From a virus, in IMG/VR virus record IMGVR_UViG_3300029432_000352: a DNA stretch of 64,000 bases; one strand, written 5' to 3'. Shown here piece by piece: positions 16,347-62,964 of this stretch; position 1 is the stretch's first letter; each line of letters opens with the position of its first letter. A program made the position numbers and the translations under genes. A model generated the notes under the pieces. It was not told the DNA's origin, ran no database searches, and saw nothing but the letters and a program-made list of their open reading frames with translations.

Positions 16347-16529
16347 TTTTTTATGAATTTATTTGTTAAATCAAAAAACACACCCCAAATATTTGGGGTG
16401 TAATATGTCATTTTCACTTTTTTCTTTCAGAGGCTATCTCCTATTCAAGAATTGGCTAAGTGAGAACCAATAAGAGCCTCAATAACAAACTCCTTGAAAA
16501 AGCTGTTATTTCACAGGCTAATTACCTTA

Positions 16530-27671: not shown

Positions 27672-28718
27672 ATGTTTAATTTTAGAATATACAACTGGAT
27701 GTCAAAATCATTGAATTTAAAGAAATTCACATTGCTTATATACGCATATGTGTATAGTTTTACTAACCACGAAGGCGGTTTTTTTGAATGTACGATTGAA
27801 ACTATATCGAAAAATTTAGGTATATCAAGAAATTCTGTAGGTACTGCCTTGAAATATTTATCAGACAATAATTTTTTAATTAAGACTACATACACATATA
27901 AAAATTTAAAACGTGTTAAATATATGCATAATCGTGATATTGCATCAAAAGCAATTGCTGAATGTGAAGAAAATACAAAACATAATGCTATGGCTTATAT
28001 TACAATTTATGATTGGATGGTGACAGAATATCATCTATCCGGTCATGAGCTGATTACGTATGCTTTGATTTATTCGTTTAGTAATTCACAAAAGCAATAT
28101 TATCAAGGCACATTGGATTATATTTGCAATCGCTTTAACTTGGATATTCGCACAGCTTATCGTGTAATAAATAACCTTGAATCTAAGAATATGATTACGC
28201 TTTATGGCAAAGGAAGAAAAGAAAAAGTGTATAGAACGAATTTTGACTATATCCCTGATAACGATATTATAAGCGAATATGATGATCTTGAAGAAACTTT
28301 TGAAACCAATAACAGTGAGAAAAAAAATGATTGTCAGAAATCGGATTTTGATGATATTGATGCAATTTTGCAACGTGAAATAGAGCAAGAAACAAAGCAA
28401 AATGAGACTGAAAAAAATAGTTCGCTTGATACAGAGAAAGCAGTTGAATCAGAGCCGGATTATGAAAAAGACTTGCAGTTGTTAGAAAACTCAATTGCGT
28501 ATTTTTGTGATACACACGGTGTAAACTTGGATGAACTGGCTTATATGCTTGAGGAGGATTATATTAATCGTTCTCGCTTGCATAAAGTTATTGAGCTTGT
28601 CAAAGACCGACAGCAAAAAGAATTAATCAGCGAGAAAAAGAAAGCCGATAAGAAAAAAATTGTAGCTAATCGCAATATGAGAAGAATGCTCGCTAAAAAC
28701 AGACGAAAGGCTTGTTAA
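27672..28718 (+). CDS. protein with two replisome-organizer-like HTH repeats and acidic/basic C-terminal tail (348 aa)
   Basis: LLIYAYVYSF...TIETISKNLGISRNSVGTALKYL and ELITYALIYSF...LDYICNRFNLDIRTAYRVINNL. Confidence 0.5.
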   Translation: MFNFRIYNWMSKSLNLKKFTLLIYAYVYSFTNHEGGFFECTIETISKNLGISRNSVGTALKYLSDNNFLIKTTYTYKNLKRVKYMHNRDIASKAIAECEENTKHNAMAYITIYDWMVTEYHLSGHELITYALIYSFSNSQKQYYQGTLDYICNRFNLDIRTAYRVINNLESKNMITLYGKGRKEKVYRTNFDYIPDNDIISEYDDLEETFETNNSEKKNDCQKSDFDDIDAILQREIEQETKQNETEKNSSLDTEKAVESEPDYEKDLQLLENSIAYFCDTHGVNLDELAYMLEEDYINRSRLHKVIELVKDRQQKELISEKKKADKKKIVANRNMRRMLAKNRRKAC

Positions 28719-28779: not shown

Positions 28780-30125
28780 GAAAGTGAGAATACTCGTCAC
28801 TTTAGTGATGAGATGAATCACCATTTAGAGAATATACATACGAGGTGATAAGTATGGAGGTAGTTACAGTAAAAAATTGGAGATATTAAAAATTGAAAAA
28901 GTAAAGGGGTGAATACAGTGGAAAAGGCTTATAAATATCGTATTTATCCAAATAAAAGTCAAAAAATTCAAATTGCTAAAACATTTGGATGCTGTCGTTT
29001 TGTGTATAACTATTATTTAGCTAAACGTATTGAGTTGTATGAAAAGAATAAAGAAACATTCTCATATGTTCAATGTGCAAATGATATGAAAAAACTCAAA
29101 TCTCAATTGCAATGGTTAAAAGAAGTTGATTCCACTGCACTTCAATCAGCACTTAGAGATTTAGATATGGCATACAAAAAATTTTTTAAAGAACATACCG
29201 GTTATCCTAAATTTAGGTCAAAGAAAACATATAGATTTTCTTATAAGTCAAAACAAGTAAATGGAAATGTTCAATATTGTGGTAAATACATTAAATTGCC
29301 TAAACTCGGAATGATTAAAACAAAAAATAAGTTAGTTCCACAAGGAAGAATACTTAACGCAACTGTTTCACAAGAGCCGAGTGGTAAATATTATATATCA
29401 CTTTGTTGTACAGATGTTGATATTAAACCATTAAAGCGAACAGGAAATTCTGTAGGATTGGATTTAGGTATTAAAGAATTTTGTATTACATCTGATGGTA
29501 AAATGATAGAAAATCCTAAATATCTTAAAAAGTCATTAGCTAAACTTGTTAAACTACAGCGAAAGCTATCTCGAAAACCAAAAGGTAGTTCAAACCGTAA
29601 TAAAGCAAGAATAAAAATTGCACGTCAACATGAGAAAATTGCTAATCAGAGAAAAGATTTTCTGCAAAAGTTATCTACTGAACTAATTAAGGAAAATGAT
29701 ATTATCTGTATTGAAGACCTTCAAATAAAGAATATGATAAAAAATCATAAACTTGCCAAAAGTATTGCAGATGTATCGTGGTCTGAATTTGTAAGGCAAC
29801 TTGAATATAAAGCAAATTGGTATGACAAACAGATTGTTAAAGTAGATAAGTTTTTTGCAAGTTCTCAGATTTGCAATGTGTGTGGATATATAAACAAGGA
29901 AACTAAAAATCTTGGTGTAAGGAAATGGGATTGCCCTTGTTGTAACATACACCACAACAGGGATATAAATGCTGCAATTAATATCTTAAATGAAGGATTA
30001 AGAATATTAGATGTAGCTTAAATTGAAATATAAGAACCGTCGGGACAATGGGGTTAGCTTAGTAAATATCTTTTCAATAGAAAAGAGTTCCTAAGAATCT
30101 CGTGACTTTAGTCATGAGAGGTTCA
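28780..30125 (+). mobile_element. IS200/IS605-family element (IS1341-like, tnpB only) with subterminal hairpins
   Basis: LE hairpin ctcgtcactttagtgatgag 28794-28813, RE hairpin ctcgtgactttagtcatgag 30099-30118 flank tnpB. Confidence 0.65.
28909..30021 (+). CDS. tnpB: TnpB (OrfB) RuvC-like RNA-guided endonuclease (370 aa)
   Basis: N-terminal [14 protein letters not shown]-terminal zinc finger CNVCGY...CPCCN...[10 protein letters not shown]. Confidence 0.85.
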
Positions 30126-34535: not shown

Positions 34536-34601
34536 TTTTTTCCCTCCTTAAAAAATTAATAATATATATATATACCGTTTGTTAAACAGTAAAAAAGAAA
34601 A

Positions 34602-34748
34602 TAAAAAAAAGAGCAACTAAGCCCGGTTAGGGTTTAATTACTCTTATAAAAAAACTTTATTAACGAAAAGAAAACAGTTTTATTATAACTATTTTCGTAA
34701 ACTTCATATCTTATATATTTATTATAACACAGTATATAATGAAGTCAA
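34602..34748 (-). promoter_or_regulatory. leader module copy a: promoter TTGACTTCA-16-TGtTATAAT, hairpin, terminator-like hairpin+U-run
   Basis: plus strand: attataaca 34721-34729, agtcaa 34743-34748; hairpin 34610-34644 preceded by A-run. Confidence 0.5.
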
Positions 34749-34752
34749 TAGA

Positions 34753-35028
34753 TTAATTTAGGAATTTGCGTTCTACGAACCATTTTCCTATGTTACAACC
34801 GGATATTGCAGCATTTCTCTCAAAGAAAAGATAACTGCATTGATTGTTCACTTGAATAGTATATCTATCCCCTTGCCCTCCTGCTTTCATTGCTGCCGCA
34901 GGACGAACATCTAATATTTTGTCAATTATGAATCTATGCCCATCTTCCCAAATAATACTTTTGGGTATCATATGTCCAATATCGTCAAAATCAACAGTAA
35001 CAGGAACATATACTTTGTATTTATTCAT
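34753..35028 (-). CDS. hypothetical protein (91 aa) distal in XRE-ImmA operon
   Basis: ORF overlapping ImmA stop. Confidence 0.45.
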   Translation of the reverse strand: MNKYKVYVPVTVDFDDIGHMIPKSIIWEDGHRFIIDKILDVRPAAAMKAGGQGDRYTIQVNNQCSYLFFERNAAISGCNIGKWFVERKFLN

Positions 35029-35572
35029 AATAGCCGCCTCCTAAATCACGTTTAAGAAATGTATTCTTTGTATTTATAGGTGAAACTAATTTATATCCTT
35101 TCTGTTTTAAGATTTTAAACTTAAAATCTAATAATTCTACCGGAACATTTAATTTAGATGCCACCTGAAAGAAAGAATAATTTTCATTTAGATATTCTAA
35201 GACTACATCATCATCTAAAAGCATTTCAGCAGCAAAAATATTCGCTTCATATTCCAAAGTTGATACTTCATCAAATAGTTGAAACTCATGGAATAGATGT
35301 GAAGTAGCATTTTTATGCAAAATAGCATGTCCTAATTCGTGAGCTAATACAATATTTTGTATTAATTCCGGTAAATCAGTATTAATCGTAATGGTTTTAA
35401 TCTTACTGTGAGTCAGAAAAAAGCCTTTACAAGCATTTTCGGTTTTGCCCATACCAGAATACATCAGTATAATACTTAAATCACGGCATAGTTCTTTTAA
35501 ATTTCTTACATCATATGATTTTTTTATACTGTCTACAATATCGGAAATTGTTAAAATACTTAATTTCACCAT
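35021..35572 (-). CDS. ImmA/IrrE-family zinc metallopeptidase (183 aa)
   Basis: HEXXH VLAHELGHAILH; immediately downstream of XRE repressor. Confidence 0.7.
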   Translation of the reverse strand: MVKLSILTISDIVDSIKKSYDVRNLKELCRDLSIILMYSGMGKTENACKGFFLTHSKIKTITINTDLPELIQNIVLAHELGHAILHKNATSHLFHEFQLFDEVSTLEYEANIFAAEMLLDDDVVLEYLNENYSFFQVASKLNVPVELLDFKFKILKQKGYKLVSPINTKNTFLKRDLGGGYYE

Positions 35573-35574
35573 AG

Positions 35575-36003
35575 TTATTTATTCCCTTTTCCGTATTTTT
35601 CTTTAGCAGCATTTTTACAAGCAAAATATGCTTCTGTAACTGCCTGAAAATATGCATCCTTTGTTTCTTCAGAAATAGAACCACCGGCAAATAAAGCTCT
35701 ATTTGCATTTAATAATTCGGTAATTTCTTTTTCACCGTTTAAGCCATACTTATCAAAGGCTTGTTCTTTATATCCGGCAATATCTTGATTGTATTGTGGA
35801 TTGTCTATTTCATCTATGTCTAAATACTCGTATGAGACGTCTAACGCTTTTGCCATTTTATGAATTGCCGATGCTCTCGGAATAGAAGTGCCATTTTCAT
35901 ATTTTATAATAGAACGTTTTGAAATACCTATCATCTCACCTAATTGTTCTTGACTTAAATTTTTGCTAAGTCTTTCTTTTCTCAATTTTTCTGCAAACTT
36001 CAT
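35575..36003 (-). CDS. XRE-family (Cro/C1-type) HTH repressor, ImmR-like (142 aa)
   Basis: LSQEQLGEMIGISKRSIIKYENG HTH. Confidence 0.75.
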   Translation of the reverse strand: MKFAEKLRKERLSKNLSQEQLGEMIGISKRSIIKYENGTSIPRASAIHKMAKALDVSYEYLDIDEIDNPQYNQDIAGYKEQAFDKYGLNGEKEITELLNANRALFAGGSISEETKDAYFQAVTEAYFACKNAAKEKYGKGNK

Positions 36004-36024
36004 TGTATCTTCTCTCCTATATAT

Positions 36025-36129
36025 GAACTTTATTTCACTTTTCGCTTGACAAAGTTCACTTTGTATGATATATTCTTGGTGAACTTTATTTCACTTTATC
36101 ACATTTAACTTCACTTGTCAAGTGAAGTT
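36025..36129. promoter_or_regulatory. divergent control region: 17-bp direct repeats gaactttatttcacttt (36025-36041, 36081-36097), promoter TTGACA-17-TATATT (36046-36074, plus), perfect 23-bp palindrome AACTTCACTTGTCAAGTGAAGTT (36107-36129)
   Basis: all seen directly; palindrome contains TTGACA on minus strand, i.e. overlaps -35 of the XRE promoter. Confidence 0.55.
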
Positions 36130-36150: not shown

Positions 36151-37389
36151 ATGGACAGAGTAATCTTGCATAGCGATATGAATAGTTTTTATGCTTCAGT
36201 TGAAATTATGTTAAATCCTGAATTAAGAAACAAACCTGTTGCCGTTGGTGGTAGTACAGAAGAACGACACGGTATTATTCTGACTAAAAATCAGATTGCG
36301 AAGAAATATGGCATTAAAACAGGTATGGTTAATTGGGAAGCAAAACTACTATGCCCCGATTTAGTTATTATCACACCACATTATGAACAGTATATCAAAT
36401 ATTCAAAAATGGCACGAGAAATATACAGTAGATATACAGATAAAATTGAACCGTTTGGTATGGATGAATGTTGGCTTGATATGACTGAAAGTACAGAATT
36501 GTTCGGAAATGGCTTTGATATTGCCAATAATATTAGAAAAACAATTAAGTCAGAGTTAGGTTTAACAGTTAGTATAGGTGTATCTTTTAATAAGATATTT
36601 GCCAAATTAGGTTCAGATATGAAAAAGCCTGATGCTATAACTGTTATAAACAGAGAAAATTATAAAGATAAAGTATGGAACTTGCCTGTCGAAGATTTAT
36701 TCTATGTTGGTCCGGTAACAAAACGTAAACTTAATTCTATAGGTGTTCAAACTATCGGTAATTTAGCCAAATTTCCTGTGAATATTCTTAAAGATAAATT
36801 AGGCAAGAATGGAATTATGTTAAGTGCATATGCTAATGGAGCAGATACTTCACCTGTTATGCCACAAGATTTTGAATCACAAATAAAATCTATTGGACAT
36901 GGTTTAACATTTGTTAGAGATTTAAAAGATAATAATGATGCTTGGCAGGTAATATTTGAACTATCTCAAAATATTGGCAAAAAGCTCCGTAAACATCATT
37001 TACTGTGTGGTGGTATACAATTATCTATCCGAACATCTAATCTGTGGTATAAGCAATGGCAGAGCCTTATAGATGGTAACAGTAGAAGTGTACGAACAAT
37101 AGCCCATACCACTCAAAACTTGTTAGAAACACATTTTAATTGGAATGATACTATTCGGTCATTAACGGTACGAGCAATATATCTTGTTCCTGATAATATT
37201 CCCTATCAAAGAAGTTTATTTGTTGATGATGAAAAAAATGAGAATACAGAAAAATTAGAAAGGACCGTTGAAGTTTTAAGAAATAGATTCGGTCCGAATA
37301 CTATAACATATGCTTCTTTGCTTAATAATGATAAGATACCAAATATTCGCTTGGAAGAAATGATTATGCCGAAACTATTGTCAAGATAA
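36151..37389 (+). CDS. Y-family DNA polymerase (DinB/UmuC-like, 412 aa)
   Basis: N-terminal ILHSDMNSFYASVE...KPVAVGG motif. Confidence 0.8.
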   Translation: MDRVILHSDMNSFYASVEIMLNPELRNKPVAVGGSTEERHGIILTKNQIAKKYGIKTGMVNWEAKLLCPDLVIITPHYEQYIKYSKMAREIYSRYTDKIEPFGMDECWLDMTESTELFGNGFDIANNIRKTIKSELGLTVSIGVSFNKIFAKLGSDMKKPDAITVINRENYKDKVWNLPVEDLFYVGPVTKRKLNSIGVQTIGNLAKFPVNILKDKLGKNGIMLSAYANGADTSPVMPQDFESQIKSIGHGLTFVRDLKDNNDAWQVIFELSQNIGKKLRKHHLLCGGIQLSIRTSNLWYKQWQSLIDGNSRSVRTIAHTTQNLLETHFNWNDTIRSLTVRAIYLVPDNIPYQRSLFVDDEKNENTEKLERTVEVLRNRFGPNTITYASLLNNDKIPNIRLEEMIMPKLLSR

Positions 37390-41182: not shown

Positions 41183-41331
41183 TTTCTTATTCCTCCTTTG
41201 AATTGGTTGTTGCTTTTTAAATTAACTTTCACTTTAAATTTTAATTTGAACGTAAAAAGTCTTTTTTGATTCCTCCTTATGAAATTTAATAGATATATAT
41301 AATCCGTTTTTTAAAACGGTAAAAAAGAAAA

Positions 41332-41468
41332 TAAAAAAAGAGCAATCAAGCCCTTATTAGGGTTAGATTACTCTTTAAATTTAACTATATTAGCATAAAA
41401 GAATACATTGTATTCTTAAACCTTCATACTTCTTAATATAATTATATCATTTACAATTGTGAAGTCAA
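41332..41468 (-). promoter_or_regulatory. leader module copy b (TTGACTTCA-16-TGaTATAAT; terminator-like hairpin 41339-41374)
   Basis: plus: attatatca 41441-41449, agtcaa 41463-41468. Confidence 0.5.
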
Positions 41469-41483
41469 TATGTAAATACAAAA

Positions 41484-43124: not shown

Positions 43125-43187
43125 AAAATTCCTCCTTAAATTATTCATTTGATATATATATAAACCACTAAATAGTAGTAAAAAAGA

Positions 43188-43333
43188 ATAAAAAAAGAAC
43201 AATTATATTTTCCGGTTAGGAATTTATAATTGTTCTATGTTAAACTATTAAATACAAAAAGAGAATATTATATCTCTCTTGAGCACTTCATATTTATACT
43301 ATAAGTATAACATAGCATATAATTGAAGTCAAT
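43188..43333 (-). promoter_or_regulatory. leader module copy c (TTGACTTCA-17-TGtTATACT; 12-bp perfect terminator-like stem 43197-43237)
   Basis: plus: agtata 43305-43310, agtcaa 43328-43333. Confidence 0.5.
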
Positions 43334-45701: not shown

Positions 45702-45764
45702 AAAAATTCCGGATACTTTTTTGTATATAAACTGTCAATAATGGCAGATAATAAAATTAAATCT

Positions 45765-45906
45765 ATAAAAAAAGAACAAACTAAATCCCTTTAGGGTTTG
45801 TTAGTCTGTTCTTGAACTTTAATTAAAATCGAAACATGGTATAACCATGTTTCAATAACCTTCATATCTTATATTTTTATTATAACATACATAGAAATGA
45901 AGTCAA
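45765..45906 (-). promoter_or_regulatory. leader module copy d (TTGACTTCA-16-TGtTATAAT; hairpin 45773-45812 + U-run)
   Basis: plus: attataaca 45869-45877, agtcaa 45901-45906. Confidence 0.5.
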
Positions 45907-46376
45907 TAACTTTTTATACAATATTTTTTTAAAAGTTTTATATAATTTCTTTACATAGCATCCCATTGCTTATATTCCTCTAAGCGATGAATAAATCCAC
46001 TGAATTGAGGAATGGTAAAATCTAATTCTCGATATTTTACCGTATAAATACGTAAAAATAATACGATAAGTTTAAAACTTACCGTATTATTTGAAATCAA
46101 AACTTGTTATTGTGGTTTACCTATTTTTGACTATTTTGCATAATTGACAAAATCATAACTATAATATATAATAAAATTATCAATATAGATAACTTTAGCA
46201 CACGGCAAATACACTACAATGTTAATTGTACGTAAATTTGTCCTCTGTGCTTTTTTTATTTCTTCACAAAATAATTATATTTTATTATTTTTAATCAATA
46301 CTTCCTATATATATAATGCCTATTTTTTATGGTTTTCTACATTTTCATAAGTAAATAGGCACTTATATATTTGCTA

Positions 46377-48696: not shown

Positions 48697-48761
48697 ACTG
48701 AATTCCTCCTTAAAAATAATTATGTTTAATATATAAACAGCTTAATAGCTGTAACAAAAAT

Positions 48762-48904
48762 AATAAAAAAAGAGTGATTAAGCCCTATTTGGGTTTAATC
48801 ACTCATAAAAAACTATATTAATTAAAAAAGAAAACAATTTCAATTATTTTCTTAAAAACTTCATACTTATATTTTAATTATAACATGATATAAAATGAAG
48901 TCAA
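48762..48904 (-). promoter_or_regulatory. leader module copy e (TTGACTTCA-16-TGtTATAAT; hairpin 48771-48804 + U-run); ~100 bp identical to copy f
   Basis: plus: attataaca 48877-48885, agtcaa 48899-48904. Confidence 0.55.
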
Positions 48905-48961
48905 TACCTGTTTATCTTTAGCCAATGAATATACCTCATAAATAATCTCTTTTTCCAACTA

Positions 48962-51097: not shown

Positions 51098-51162
51098 AAT
51101 TCTTTTTCCTCCGTTTCATTTAACTTAATATATATAAACAGCTTAATAGCTGTAACAAAAAT

Positions 51163-51298
51163 AATAAAAAAGAGTGATTAAGCCCTATTTGGGTTTAATC
51201 ACTCATAAAAAACTATATTAATTAAAAAGGAAACATTAAAATGTTCCATAAACTTCATATTTATAATATAATTATATCATATCGTAAATTGAAGTCAA
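51163..51298 (-). promoter_or_regulatory. leader module copy f (TTGACTTCA-16-TGaTATAAT; hairpin 51171-51204 + U-run)
   Basis: plus: attatatca 51271-51279, agtcaa 51293-51298. Confidence 0.55.
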
Positions 51299-51347
51299 CA
51301 ATATATTTATTGCTCTTATTTATTTGACTTGCTTTCATTGAATAAAA

Positions 51348-53401: not shown

Positions 53402-53467
53402 ACAAATTCCTCCTTTGGAAATTACATTGTTTAATTTATGTAAACAGTTCATACTGTAAAAAAGAAA

Positions 53468-53604
53468 ATAAAAAAAGAGTAATCAAACCCAAATAGGATT
53501 CGATTACTCTAAAAAAACTATATAAATATTAAAGAAAACATTAAGATGTTTCCATAAACTTCATATTTATAATATAATTATATCATGTCATAAATTGAAG
53601 TCAA
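53468..53604 (-). promoter_or_regulatory. leader module copy g (TTGACTTCA-16-TGaTATAAT; hairpin 53476-53510 + U-run)
   Basis: plus: attatatca 53577-53585, agtcaa 53599-53604. Confidence 0.5.
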
Positions 53605-53620
53605 TATATTATTTTTTTAA

Positions 53621-54521: not shown

Positions 54522-55457
54522 TTAAACTCTCACGCCAACACATTCATAAAATATATCAGCATCAAAATATGGTAACGACTTAATAAATTCTTTATCATCA
54601 TCGCTAACATCTTCATCCCACCATTTTTGCTTGTCAGCTTCAACTATTATTGTTTTGATATATCCGCCAATAGTTTCACATTCAGGGTGTTCCATAATTT
54701 CTTCCTCACTCATTTTGTTTTTGGAAATAAAATCCGAATATTCATATGATTGAGGGCAATCCAATAAAATCTCGTTAAATCTAACTATTGACTTATCATT
54801 AAAATCAAATTCTGTTTCATGATTAAACATTCTCACTTTAGGTGAATTTGTATTACAAATTCCACTGTTATAATTTCCACTGTTATAATCTCCAGAATTA
54901 TAATTTCCGCTATTATAATCTCCACTATTATGACAACCAGAATTATAATCTCCATTGTTACAATTTCCGGTGTTATAATCTCCTGTGTTATAATTTCCGC
55001 TGTTATGATAACCGGAATTATAATCTCCACTGTTACAATTTCCGGTGTTATAATCTCCGGTGTTATCATTTCCGGTGTTATCATTTCCGGTGTTATAATT
55101 TCCGCTGTTATGATAACCGGAATTATAAGTTCCACTGTTACACTTTCCGGAATTTCCTTTTCCAGTATTGCACATATCCAACACTTCGCTCCACTTCAAT
55201 TCTTTTAAGATAACTATCTTATTTGTGCAACACTTAGAGTTGGTATCATCAAAATGAATTTCTCCTATTGCCTCAATTTCAGCCACCTTATTGTTTGGAT
55301 CAAATGAATAATAATTAAAGCAATCTACTAATTTTTCACAAAAATGAAAACCCACCTTACAACACTTTGGACTTTCTGCTATCTCATAAGTCTTTCCAAT
55401 TTCATATTGATAACCTCTGCATGTCCAATCTGAATTAAATACTTTATAACCTTTCAT
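54522..55457 (-). CDS. pentapeptide-like repeat protein: ~27 tandem 5-aa units (N-[ST]-G-[DN]-[YCD]) after a Cys-containing N-terminal domain (311 aa from ATG 55457)
   Basis: GGAGGAATTTAAA RBS; repeats GNYNSGDYNSGYHNSGNYNTGNDNTG... seen directly. Confidence 0.5.
   Translation of the reverse strand: MKGYKVFNSDWTCRGYQYEIGKTYEIAESPKCCKVGFHFCEKLVDCFNYYSFDPNNKVAEIEAIGEIHFDDTNSKCCTNKIVILKELKWSEVLDMCNTGKGNSGKCNSGTYNSGYHNSGNYNTGNDNTGNDNTGDYNTGNCNSGDYNSGYHNSGNYNTGDYNTGNCNNGDYNSGCHNSGDYNSGNYNSGDYNSGNYNSGICNTNSPKVRMFNHETEFDFNDKSIVRFNEILLDCPQSYEYSDFISKNKMSEEEIMEHPECETIGGYIKTIIVEADKQKWWDEDVSDDDKEFIKSLPYFDADIFYECVGVRV
54843..55170. repeat. tandem 15-bp coding repeats (pentapeptide units) producing spurious ORFs in other frames
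   Basis: seen directly; ORFs 54833..55135(-), 54842..55213(+), 54930..55208(+) are artifacts. Confidence 0.7.
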
Positions 55458-55520
55458 TTTAAATTCCTCCTTAAAATTTTTAATAATATATATAATCCGA
55501 AAAAGCGGTAAAATAGAAAT

Positions 55521-55660
55521 AAAAAAAAGAGCAATTAAGCCCAATTAAGGTTTAATTACTCTTATAAAAAAACTATATTAATATCAATGAAAATAGTTAA
55601 TCTATTTTCTGAAACTTCATATTTATAATATAATTATAACATATCATAAATTAAAGTCAA
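55521..55660 (-). promoter_or_regulatory. leader module copy h (TTGACTTTA-16-TGtTATAAT; hairpin 55528-55562 + U-run)
   Basis: plus: attataaca 55633-55641, agtcaa 55655-55660. Confidence 0.5.
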
Positions 55661-55849
55661 TAAACAAAATTTATTTTTAAATTTCGTATAAAATCTACAT
55701 TTCATTATACATATAAATGTCGCCCTATATAATGTCTTTCCTATGAGGAATCGTATTCTACATTCTGTAAAAAGTCAATAATTTTAGTATTATCTTCACA
55801 TTCTCTATTTTTTGTACTCGGAAAAATATCATATGCGTTTGCCAAACAA

Positions 55850-62748: not shown

Positions 62749-62814
62749 TAGAATTCCTCCTTTTAAAATTGCATTGTTTAATTTATATAAACAGTTCATA
62801 CTGTAAAATAGAAA

Positions 62815-62953
62815 ATAAAAAAAGAGTGATTAATCTATAAATAGGTTAAATCACTCTTTAAAAACTAAATTATTTATGTAGAAAACAGCTAATGCTATTT
62901 TCGTAAACTTCATATCTATAATTATATTATAGCATATCATAGAACAAAGTCAA
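62815..62953 (-). promoter_or_regulatory. leader module copy i (TTGACTTTG-16-TGcTATAAT; hairpin 62823-62857 + U-run)
   Basis: plus: attatagca 62916-62924, agtcaa 62948-62953. Confidence 0.5.
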
Positions 62954-62964
62954 CGCATATTTTT

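What the first reader, a model, noticed from the sequence alone, without database searches (positions are those of the whole stretch)
36025..36129. Shared ACTTCA/TGAAGT half-site links the XRE repressor operator to all nine module promoters
The perfect palindrome AACTTCACTTGTCAAGTGAAGTT sits between the XRE/ImmA operon and the divergent Y-family polymerase gene. It overlaps the -35 of the XRE promoter, a classic autoregulated-repressor layout. Its half-site ACTTCA / TGAAGT is exactly the inverted pair that brackets every module promoter: TTGACTTCA at -35 and ATGAAGTT at about +5 to +12, spacing ~32 nt in all nine copies. This suggests that one ImmR-like repressor, inactivated by the adjacent ImmA-type protease as in ICEBs1-type switches, could hold the whole small-gene array silent and release it in one step. 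The different spacing (9 vs ~32 nt) means the binding mode would have to differ, so this is tentative.
Basis: partly seen in the sequence, partly recalled or inferred. Interest (0 to 1): 0.6.

Follow-up and report, generated by a model that had tools for sequence, protein, structure and literature searches.

The report
Repressor operator beside repeated promoter modules
The palindrome is very probably part of the operator of a small, portable repressor/protease cassette that switches on an error-prone DNA polymerase. Its short sequence resemblance to nine repeated promoters in the neighbouring gene array of a conjugative element is real but too weak to show that the same repressor controls them.

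Summary
The 23-bp palindrome (36107-36129), the XRE/ImmA operon, the divergent Y-family polymerase and the nine promoter modules all exist. The claim of an identical half-site "in all nine copies" is overstated. Both ACTTCA and TGAAGT are exact in 5 of 9 modules, and each arm alone in 7 of 9. The invariant block is TATGAAG.

The palindrome is one part of a cluster of seven RTGAASTT-like half-sites, which includes two 16-bp dyads. The cluster covers two overlapping, face-to-face promoters. The same polymerase/XRE/ImmA/small-protein cassette occurs in an unrelated element, with an XRE only 47% identical. There the promoter layout and the TGAAGTT half-sites are the same, and there are no modules. 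So the operator assignment is well supported, and the cassette looks self-contained.

The link to the modules stays open. In favour: module sites match the family half-site at up to 8 of 8 bases, and XRE is the only recognisable DNA-binding protein found in the array. Against: the conserved positions are offset, single half-sites are common by chance, the spacing differs, and every module also has an intrinsic terminator before its genes. All arrays found belong to one lineage, so no covariation test was possible.

As a system this is a new variant of plasmid "establishment regulons".

The parts
36107..36129 (.). 23-bp palindrome AACTTCACTTG-T-CAAGTGAAGTT. It consists of two outward-facing GTGAAGTT half-sites flanking the -35 of the XRE promoter, and it lies in the 5' UTR of the polymerase gene.
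36023..36038 (.). 16-bp dyad ATGAACTTTATTTCAC (TGAA-N6-TTCA), just upstream of the -35 of the polymerase promoter.
36079..36094 (.). 16-bp dyad GTGAACTTTATTTCAC. It covers the predicted start sites of both promoters and reaches 2 nt into the -10 of the XRE promoter.
36052..36059 (-). Half-site GTGAACTT abutting the -35 of the polymerase promoter, inside its spacer. It occupies the same position as AACTTCAT in L029.
36046..36074 (+). Predicted polymerase promoter: TTGACA, 17-nt spacer, TG-extended TATATT (11 of 12).
36093..36121 (-). Predicted XRE operon promoter: TTGACA, 17-nt spacer, TG-extended TAAAGT (10 of 12). It faces and overlaps the polymerase promoter.
   Evidence: same layout in L029
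35575..36003 (-). XRE-family repressor, 142 aa. It has an N-terminal HTH (P22 c2-like, rmsd 0.6 A over 59 residues), a linker modelled with low confidence, and a helical C-terminal domain.
35021..35572 (-). ImmA/IrrE-type M78 metalloprotease, 183 aa, with an HELGH motif.
34753..35028 (-). Conserved 91-aa protein of unknown family, third gene of the XRE operon. It is 54-66% identical across cassettes.
36151..37389 (+). Y-family (UmuC/DinB-like) DNA polymerase, 412 aa. It is the only plus-strand gene in the array.
34564..34749 (-). Module 1: promoter TTGACTTCA..TGTTATAAT..TATGAAGTTT, followed by a structured leader with a terminator.
41294..41469 (-). Module 2 (+ site TATGAAGG).
43154..43333 (-). 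Module 3.
45722..45907 (-). Module 4 (+ site TATGAAGG).
48729..48905 (-). Module 5.
51129..51299 (-). Module 6.
53436..53605 (-). Module 7.
55487..55661 (-). Module 8 (-35 side TTGACTTTA).
62783..62954 (-). Module 9 (-35 side TTGACTTTG).

Best explanation
The palindrome is one element of a dense operator region (about 36023-36129) that belongs to a self-contained, portable four-gene cassette. The cassette is a Y-family polymerase gene on one strand and, on the other, an XRE repressor, an ImmA/IrrE-type M78 protease and a conserved 91-aa protein.

Shown or read directly from sequence:
- The two cassette promoters face each other and overlap.
- Each promoter has an RTGAASTT half-site abutting its -35.
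- Two 16-bp TGAA-N6-TTCA dyads lie over or beside them.

Inferred by analogy with ImmR/ImmA and DdrO/IrrE:
- XRE multimers occupy this cluster and repress both promoters, which gives autoregulation.
- A damage or stress signal makes the protease cleave XRE, which induces the polymerase.

The nine module promoters are a separate device. They are a repeated regulatory sequence upstream of small operons in a conjugative element. Each is a strong sigma-A promoter, an invariant TATGAAG at about +6, and a structured leader that contains an intrinsic terminator. This is analogous to the establishment-gene regulatory sequences of Bacillus plasmids.

The modules share a 5-8-nt core with the XRE half-site. 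I judge regulatory coupling to XRE less likely than not. TATGAAG and its partial inverted copy at the -35 more probably serve another factor that has not been identified, or a promoter-proximal function.
For: Cassette autonomy:
- The same gene quartet occurs with 47% (L029-L034), 45% (L041) and 35% (L004) identical XREs.
- In L029-L034 it sits in a different element (PolA, VapE, PD-(D/E)XK) that has its own second XRE/M78 pair and no module leaders.

Conserved operator architecture:
- L029 has 12/12 and 11/12 promoters facing each other.
- TTGACA-AG-ATGAAGTT and TTGACA-C-AACTTCAT in L029 mirror TTGACA-A-GTGAAGTT and TTGACA-AAGTTCAC in the window.
- The recognition helix is nearly identical.
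- TGAAGTT sites cluster only in the cassette intergenic region of L029-type loci.
- L041 has TGAACTTT repeats.

Repressor architecture:
- The fold is an HTH plus a helical C-terminal domain. Two-domain XRE repressors such as SinR, DdrO and phage repressors appear among the weak full-length matches (TM about 0.4, large rmsd).
- The protease has the HEXXH motif.

Against coupling to the modules:
- The conserved block in 21 module types is TATGAAG. The two following positions vary (T or G, then T, C, A or G), also between orthologous copies.
- The -35-side CA is present in only 15 of 21 types.
- A position weight matrix trained on cassettes outside the window ranks module + sites among many scattered coding-region hits.
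- The spacing is 32-33 nt, against 9 in the palindrome.
- Leaders have strong terminators (RNA z-scores -4 to -7.5) and compensatory changes in hairpins 2 and 3.
Against: - The module + site ATGAAGTT (6 of 9 copies) is an exact match to the half-site used four times in the L029 operator. The -35-side site GACTTCAT matches at 7 of 8. The two sites form an outward-facing pair that brackets the promoter core. The palindrome brackets its -35 in the same way (9-nt gap), and so does the L029 pair (16-nt gap).
- TATGAAG is as invariant as the -35 and -10 elements, yet RNA polymerase recognition does not explain it. No conserved RNA pairing partner was found for it.
- No other recognisable DNA-binding protein was found among about 55 array proteins in the window or in ten multi-copy clusters from extended arrays.
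- Half-sites of this XRE family occur as inverted, everted and direct repeats at varying spacing. Unusual spacing is therefore not disqualifying.
- No binding data exist.
Confidence: 0.5

Rival explanations
1. The XRE repressor also binds the ACTTCA/TGAAGT pair at every module promoter: one site overlaps the -35 and one lies at about +6 to +13, bridged by a multimer. It thereby keeps the whole array silent in established hosts. The array fires when no repressor is present, just after transfer, or when ImmA cleaves the repressor.
For: - Match of 8 of 8 (+ site) and 6-7 of 8 (-35 site) to the family half-site RTGAASTT, which was derived independently from L029 and L041.
- The outward-facing pair brackets promoter elements, as in the cassette promoters.
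- TATGAAG is invariant in 21 module types.
- XRE is the only recognisable transcription factor in the array.
- The model shows a two-domain repressor. SinR and other two-domain XRE repressors appear among the weak full-length fold matches. That SinR tolerates varied site arrangements is from my own knowledge.
- Precedent: Reg576 of plasmid p576 represses four establishment promoters through operators just upstream of the -35 and, in two of them, just downstream of the start site (PMC6294495, PMC8708921).
Against: - The conserved positions are offset by two bases from the operator consensus, and the TT of the half-site is not conserved in the modules.
- Six of the seven half-sites in the window's own operator region begin with G; the module sites begin with A or T.
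- Single half-sites are common by chance.
- The cassette functions without modules in other elements.
- The XRE gene has its own, different promoter rather than a module promoter.
- All arrays found are one lineage with a 99-100% identical XRE, so there is no covariation evidence.
- Terminators in every leader mean promoter derepression alone may not express the genes.
Confidence: 0.28
2. The inverted pair lets the promoter region fold into a hairpin in the transferred single strand, making a single-strand promoter or priming signal like Frpo/ssi of F-like plasmids. The resemblance to the XRE operator is irrelevant.
For: - The region is probably a leading/establishment region of a conjugative element: a T4SS ATPase lies in the same window, and orphan methylases, DpnD/PcfM and DUF4942 genes lie in the array.
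- Eight of nine promoter regions fold slightly better than shuffles as DNA.
Against: - Predicted DNA hairpins are weak (-1.6 to -5.8 kcal/mol; z from +0.7 to -3.0).
- Changes in one arm are never compensated in the other: ACTTTA, ACTTTG and ACTTTT pair with TGAAGT or TGAAGG.
- The -35 and -10 would not be reconstituted as duplex.
- The promoters are already near-consensus double-strand sigma-A promoters.
Confidence: 0.04
3. The palindrome acts mainly at RNA level, as a hairpin in the 5' UTR of the polymerase mRNA (an attenuator or translational element), rather than as a protein operator.
For: - With the predicted plus-strand start near 36082, the palindrome is transcribed at about +26 to +48 and is followed by TTTTG.
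- The L029 inverted pair also lies in the polymerase 5' UTR.
Against: - Between lineages the arm sequence is conserved (AACTTCAY / RTGAAGTT) rather than covarying, while the spacing changes from 7 to 16 nt between the 8-mers.
- The same 8-mer recurs unpaired, as direct repeats and inside the promoter spacers.
- The tail has only four T.
Confidence: 0.08

Closest known systems
ImmR/ImmA of ICEBs1 (Bacillus subtilis) and the wider XRE/COG2856 pairs such as DdrO/IrrE of Deinococcus (PMC8072749)
   Same: An XRE HTH repressor is co-transcribed with an M78/COG2856 HEXXH metalloprotease. Operators overlap the repressor's own promoter. The repressor has two domains, with a C-terminal helical domain. 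The pair sits on a mobile element.
   Different: The divergent target is a single Y-family polymerase gene, not an excision/transfer operon or a repair regulon. No integrase follows the protease. The promoters are face to face and overlapping. A conserved 91-aa third gene is present. Cleavage has not been tested.
EGeRS2/Reg576 establishment regulon of plasmid p576, and EGeRS1 of pLS20 (PMC6294495, PMC8708921)
   Same: Multiple copies of a conserved regulatory sequence each precede a small, mosaic operon in one region of a Gram-positive conjugative element. As in EGeRS2, each copy holds a strong sigma-A promoter with short conserved motifs at the -35 and just after the start site. As in EGeRS1, each has a structured region that should stop read-through.
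   Different: There is no sequence similarity. At least 13 copies exist here, against 4-5. The candidate repressor is an XRE with a protease partner, not a ribbon-helix-helix protein, and it is not expressed from a module promoter. One unit combines a promoter with an intrinsic terminator. No ArdC/ArdA homologue was detected.
434 / P22 c2-type operators and SinR-type site arrangements (own knowledge; structural matches)
   Same: The HTH superposes on P22 c2 (rmsd 0.6 A). The two 16-bp dyads have the TGAA-N6-TTCA geometry, like ACAA-N6-TTGT of phage 434. Half-sites also occur as everted and tandem repeats, as described for SinR.
   Different: The recognition sequence differs. The oligomeric state and binding mode are unknown.
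CUP-controlled regulon with ArdK/ArdR in the leading region of IncN plasmid pKM101, and the HdiR-umuC SOS cassette of streptococci (both from memory, not checked here)
   Same: In the first, repeated promoter-bearing sequences upstream of leading-region genes are under one plasmid repressor. In the second, a repressor is divergently paired with a umuC-like gene as a portable mutagenesis cassette.
   Different: The repeat sequences and regulator families are unrelated. HdiR is a self-cleaving LexA-like protein, not an XRE with a separate metalloprotease.

Membership tests
ImmR/ImmA-type (XRE + COG2856) switch | Repressor with an XRE/Cro-C1 HTH domain | tested here: met
   HTH_3 E=1.1e-16. The HTH superposes on P22 c2 at 0.6 A.
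ImmR/ImmA-type (XRE + COG2856) switch | Adjacent, co-oriented M78/COG2856 metalloprotease with an HEXXH motif | tested here: met
   Peptidase_M78 E=1.2e-16. The motif is HELGH. The gene starts 3 nt after the XRE stop codon.
ImmR/ImmA-type (XRE + COG2856) switch | Repressor binding sites overlap its own promoter and a divergent promoter | tested here: inconclusive
   Sequence evidence only. Half-sites abut both -35 boxes in the window and in L029. There are no binding data.
ImmR/ImmA-type (XRE + COG2856) switch | Controls the element's excision/transfer operon, with an integrase in the repressor operon (ICEBs1 layout) | tested here: not met
   The divergent gene is only the polymerase. The downstream genes (91 aa, 115 aa, 52 aa, 377 aa, 122 aa) have no integrase or recombinase domain.
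ImmR/ImmA-type (XRE + COG2856) switch | Site-specific cleavage of the repressor by the protease on a signal | not testable with these tools
   Needs biochemistry.
Establishment regulon of the EGeRS2/Reg576 type | Several copies of a conserved sequence, each upstream of an operon, within one region of a conjugative element | tested here: met
   Nine copies in the window and more beyond its right end. A T4SS ATPase lies in the same window.
Establishment regulon of the EGeRS2/Reg576 type | Each copy contains a strong sigma-A promoter | tested here: met
   TTGACT, 16-17-nt spacer, TG-extended TATAAT; 11 of 12 for module 1. Activity has not been measured.
Establishment regulon of the EGeRS2/Reg576 type | Repeated operator motif flanking the promoter, bound by an element-encoded repressor | tested here: inconclusive
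   An invariant TATGAAG at about +6 and a partial inverted copy at the -35 are present. The binding protein is unknown.
Establishment regulon of the EGeRS2/Reg576 type | The repressor gene is itself driven by one of the repeated promoters | tested here: not met
   XRE has its own promoter of a different sequence. No DNA-binding domain was found in the module genes.
Establishment regulon of the EGeRS2/Reg576 type | Sequence similarity to EGeRS1 or EGeRS2 | not tested
Megablast against the plasmid collection gave no match.
Frpo-type single-strand promoter | Stable hairpin in the transferred strand that rebuilds a duplex -35 and -10 | tested here: not met
   DNA folds are -1.6 to -5.8 kcal/mol, the -10 lies in the loop, and there are no compensatory changes.
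Any described RNA family (Rfam 15) for the module leader | Match to a covariance model | tested here: not met
   No match at gathering score or at E<=1 over 33000-64000.

The most novel reading that the evidence does not exclude
A single XRE repressor, paired with an ImmA-type protease, is the master switch of an array of at least 13 promoter-leader modules that drive the establishment and anti-defence genes of a gut Firmicute conjugative element. The array would then be expressed both on entry into a new host, when no repressor is present, and on demand through proteolysis, for example after DNA damage. Leader terminators would add a second gate. This would be a new regulatory logic for leading-region genes.
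Probability: 0.25. Interest if true: 0.65.

Novelty: new variant of a known kind. Interest (0 to 1): 0.4.

Why it matters
How conjugative elements time the burst of establishment and anti-defence genes after entering a new cell is known for only a few plasmids. This human-gut element carries an unusually large and regular array: at least 13 near-identical promoter-leader units in front of mosaic small operons. A repressor/protease cassette sits inside that array.

If the repressor controls the array, transfer-triggered and stress-triggered expression would be tied to one protease-sensitive protein. If it does not, two features stand on their own as testable regulatory designs that these searches did not match to anything described:
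- the cassette itself, a portable module for inducible error-prone synthesis with overlapping face-to-face promoters;
- the unassigned leader with its built-in terminator.

Tried and rejected
- **Covariation test of operator against module motif.** It was not possible. All module arrays recovered from IMG/VR and from metagenomes are one lineage with a 99-100% identical XRE. The diverged XRE cassettes lack modules.
- **Single-strand hairpin promoter.** Rejected: weak folds and no compensation.
- **Leader peptide starting at the ATG of TATGAAG.** Rejected by reading the nine copies: reading-frame lengths range from 3 codons to more than 20, and there is no ribosome-binding site.
- **RNA pairing partner for the 5' UAUGAAG.** None is conserved. 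The pairing seen in module 7 depends on a base that differs in the consensus.
- **Known RNA family for the leader.** None.
- **Near-identical DNA in the plasmid or phage collections.** None. The palindrome core is absent from IMG/VR.
- **Alternative regulator inside the array.** No HTH or ribbon-helix-helix domain appeared in about 55 window proteins or in ten multi-copy clusters from extended arrays. The two HTH_3 and two sigma-70 hits among 130 extended-locus proteins could not be assigned to specific proteins or loci.
- **Half-site weight matrix trained on non-window cassettes.** It does not single out the modules, so it is uninformative for single sites.
- **Extended dyad symmetry around the -10.** It is present in some copies but is not maintained when one arm changes.

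Full report
**What is in the sequence**

The window has 30% G+C. At 36107-36129 lies AACTTCACTTG-T-CAAGTGAAGTT, with 11-bp arms around a central T; none is expected by chance.

To its left, on the minus strand, are three genes:
- a 142-aa XRE protein (35575-36003; HTH_3, E=1e-16);
- a 183-aa M78 metalloprotease (35021-35572; E=1e-16, motif HELGH);
- a 91-aa protein with no family match (34753-35028).

To its right, on the plus strand, is a 412-aa Y-family polymerase (36151-37389).

The consensus scan places the best minus-strand promoter with its -35 TTGACA exactly at the palindrome centre (36121-36116; 17-nt spacer; TG-extended TAAAGT). The best plus-strand promoter is at 36046-36074 (TTGACA, 17-nt spacer, TG-extended TATATT). 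With these positions the two promoters face each other. Their predicted start sites lie within a few bases of each other near 36082-36086. Each operon therefore has a 5' UTR of about 70-80 nt that runs through the other promoter.

**The palindrome is not alone**

The degenerate 8-mer RTGAASTT occurs 33 times in the window against 13.8 expected. Six of these lie in 35996-36129:
- ATGAAGTT at the XRE start codon;
- ATGAACTT at 36023;
- GTGAACTT at 36052 (minus strand) and at 36079;
- the two palindrome arms.

Two further GTGAAATA sites complete two 16-bp dyads, ATGAACTTTATTTCAC (36023) and GTGAACTTTATTTCAC (36079). These have TGAA-N6-TTCA geometry, which is the geometry of phage 434-type operators (own knowledge). 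One half-site abuts the -35 inside the spacer of each promoter.

**Comparative evidence for the operator**

The protein search found this XRE itself (99%, 132 members), frameshifted copies of it, and a 45-47% identical group. The 47% protein (P0006) lies in the same four-gene arrangement, polymerase opposite XRE, M78 protease and an 89-aa protein. The element around it is different: it carries PolA, VapE, a PD-(D/E)XK nuclease and a second XRE/M78 pair.

Its intergenic region otherwise differs from the window, yet it keeps two things:
- two face-to-face promoters, 12/12 and 11/12;
- the half-sites: AACTTCAT-N16-ATGAAGTT around the XRE -35, AACTTCAT next to the polymerase -35, and a run ATGAATTT-G-ATGAAGTT-ATGAATTG.

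The recognition helices are ISKRSI and ISKRAI. In 12-20 kb of these loci, TGAAGTT sites cluster only there.

A 45% homologue (L041) has TGAACTTT repeats. More distant homologues (33-40%) use GTGAAAT/ATTTCAC or other palindromes. L004 again carries the full quartet.

I conclude that the palindrome belongs to the XRE operator, and that polymerase, XRE, protease and small protein form a portable unit. The AlphaFold model (pLDDT 78) has an HTH that superposes on P22 c2 at 0.6 A, a low-confidence linker and a helical C-terminal domain. SinR, DdrO and phage repressors appear among the weak full-length matches. Repressor cleavage by the protease is inferred from the ImmR/ImmA and DdrO/IrrE precedents (PMC8072749). 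It is not shown here.

**The modules**

Nine minus-strand copies of a unit of about 180 nt were found. Each unit contains, in order:
- TTGACTT(C/T)(A/G);
- a 16-17-nt spacer including TG, then TATAAT;
- 11-12 nt, then TATGAAG(T/G);
- a first hairpin of variable sequence;
- TAATATAGTTTTT;
- a long G+C-centred hairpin followed by 7-8 T;
- a third hairpin;
- a ribosome-binding site.

As RNA the leaders fold far better than shuffles (z -4 to -7.5). Hairpins 2 and 3 show compensatory changes across 17 types. No Rfam family matches.

The genes behind the modules include orphan DNA methylases, DUF4942, DpnD/PcfM, DUF3841, a pentapeptide/DUF7666 protein, a ProQ-C-like protein and YopX. Most have no family.

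The left part of the window encodes a VirB4/TraG-like ATPase, an SNF2 helicase and other genes on the same strand. The context is therefore a conjugative element, and the array resembles an establishment or leading region.

Pattern searches recovered the same element from IMG/VR and from 59 metagenome stretches, many labelled human gut. The array continues beyond the right end of the window, giving at least four more modules in L014/L021.

**How good is the shared half-site?**

Both hexamers are exact in 5 of 9 modules and each arm alone in 7 of 9. The spacing is 32-33 nt.

I searched the recovered loci with a leader model that excludes the promoter. This gave 78 complete copies, which collapse to 21 types at less than about 88% similarity. 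All were found in loci that had been retrieved through at least one pattern match. In these types the invariant positions are TTGACTT, TG, TA.A.T and TATGAAG. CA after TTGACTT occurs in 15 of 21 types. The base after TATGAAG is T in 13 and G in 8, and the next base also varies.

Orthologous copies differ at exactly these flanking positions:
- TTGACTTTA against TTGACTTCA;
- TATGAAGG against TATGAAGT;
- TATGAAGTT against TATGAAGTC.

The module's constrained block is thus shifted two bases 5' of the operator consensus RTGAASTT, whose TT is kept in all strong cassette sites. Six of the seven half-sites in the window's own operator region start with G; the module sites start with A or T.

On the other side, ATGAAGTT (6 of 9 modules) is identical to the L029 half-site. 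GACTTCAT is a 7 of 8 match. The pair is outward-facing and brackets promoter elements, as in both cassettes.

A weight matrix trained only on L029 and L041 sites ranks module + sites 5th and 14th-17th in the window. They sit among many scattered coding-region hits and above the window's own intergenic sites. A single half-site therefore carries little information in this AT-rich DNA.

**Other readings of the inverted pair**

As single-stranded DNA the promoter regions fold weakly (-1.6 to -5.8 kcal/mol; z +0.7 to -3.0), and changes in one arm are never compensated in the other. A Frpo-like single-strand promoter is therefore unlikely.

The ATG of TATGAAG does not open a conserved reading frame. 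No conserved RNA partner was found for it.

No other DNA-binding domain was found among the array proteins of the window, or in ten multi-copy protein clusters from extended arrays. Among 130 protein clusters from the extended loci, two HTH_3 and two sigma-70 hits appeared that I could not place. Small unrecognised repressors cannot be excluded.

**Conclusion and comparison**

Best supported (confidence about 0.5): the palindrome and its neighbours form the operator of an autonomous cassette in which an XRE repressor and an ImmA-type protease control a translesion polymerase. The modules are a separate repeated regulatory sequence.

It has a clear precedent in Reg576 of plasmid p576. There, four strong promoters carry operators just upstream of the -35 and, in two cases, just after the start site, and expression is transient after transfer (PMC6294495, PMC8708921).

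Compared with that system, this one differs in several ways:
- the candidate regulator belongs to a different family and has a protease partner;
- it is not driven by a module promoter;
- there are at least 13 modules;
- each module combines a promoter with an intrinsic terminator, which recalls the read-through block of EGeRS1 in pLS20 (PMC8708921).

The ICEBs1 comparison holds for the protein pair but not for the layout: there is no integrase, and the divergent target is only the polymerase.

I rate the whole as a new variant of a known kind. The specific claim of a shared operator is an interesting hypothesis that has not been demonstrated.

Noticed in passing
window 36046-36121; L029 9857-9944: The polymerase and XRE promoters are face to face and overlap, with predicted start sites a few bases apart (about 15 nt apart in L029). 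Each mRNA therefore reads through the other promoter. The layout is conserved between cassettes whose XREs are only 47% identical.
   Followed up: partly
window, minus strand: 34564-34700, 41294-41420, 43154-43284, 45722-45858, 48729-48857, 51129-51251, 53436-53557, 55487-55613, 62783-62906: Every module promoter is followed by a structured leader. It has a variable hairpin, a conserved TAATATAGTTTTT, a strong intrinsic terminator with 7-8 U, and a third hairpin before the ribosome-binding site. RNA z-scores are -4 to -7.5, there are compensatory changes, and no Rfam family matches. How the genes are expressed past the terminator is unexplained.
   Followed up: partly
L014 4800-11245 and L021 (IMG/VR contig 3300014824_000073): The module array continues beyond the right end of the window, with at least four further modules. 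Extended arrays in metagenome loci carry an intein-containing anaerobic ribonucleotide reductase, and HD, YopX and DUF5052 genes.
   Followed up: partly
window 34753-35028 (minus strand): The 91-aa third gene of the XRE operon is more conserved between cassettes (54-66% identity) than XRE (35-47%) or ImmA (28-50%). It has no Pfam or PHROG match. It may be a polymerase accessory subunit comparable to UmuD/YolD, which is speculation.
   Followed up: no
L028 about 1507 and L035 about 1162 (metagenome copies of the XRE gene): Low-coverage metagenome contigs carry a 1-nt deletion or a 55-nt deletion in the C-terminal domain of XRE. Both shift the frame into the ImmA gene. They could be assembly errors or natural repressor-defective variants.
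   Followed up: partly
window 16412-16519 (minus strand): A match to the drum RNA family (RF02958, 47.4 bits, above the gathering score), between genes of the conjugation region.
   Followed up: no
window 28909-30021 (plus strand): An IS605-family TnpB (OrfB_IS605 plus a Cas12f-like TNB domain), next to an HTH_36/DnaD-N-like gene (27672-28718) that may be a replication initiator.
   Followed up: no
window 54819-55178: A run of about 24 tandem 15-nt units encodes pentapeptide repeats in a DUF7666 protein (54522-55544). This may be a DNA mimic, which would fit an anti-restriction role (speculation).
   Followed up: no
window 35996-36003: The XRE start codon region, ATGAAGTT, is itself a perfect half-site and is identical to the module + site. 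More distant homologues also begin with MKFAEK, so this is probably dictated by coding.
   Followed up: partly
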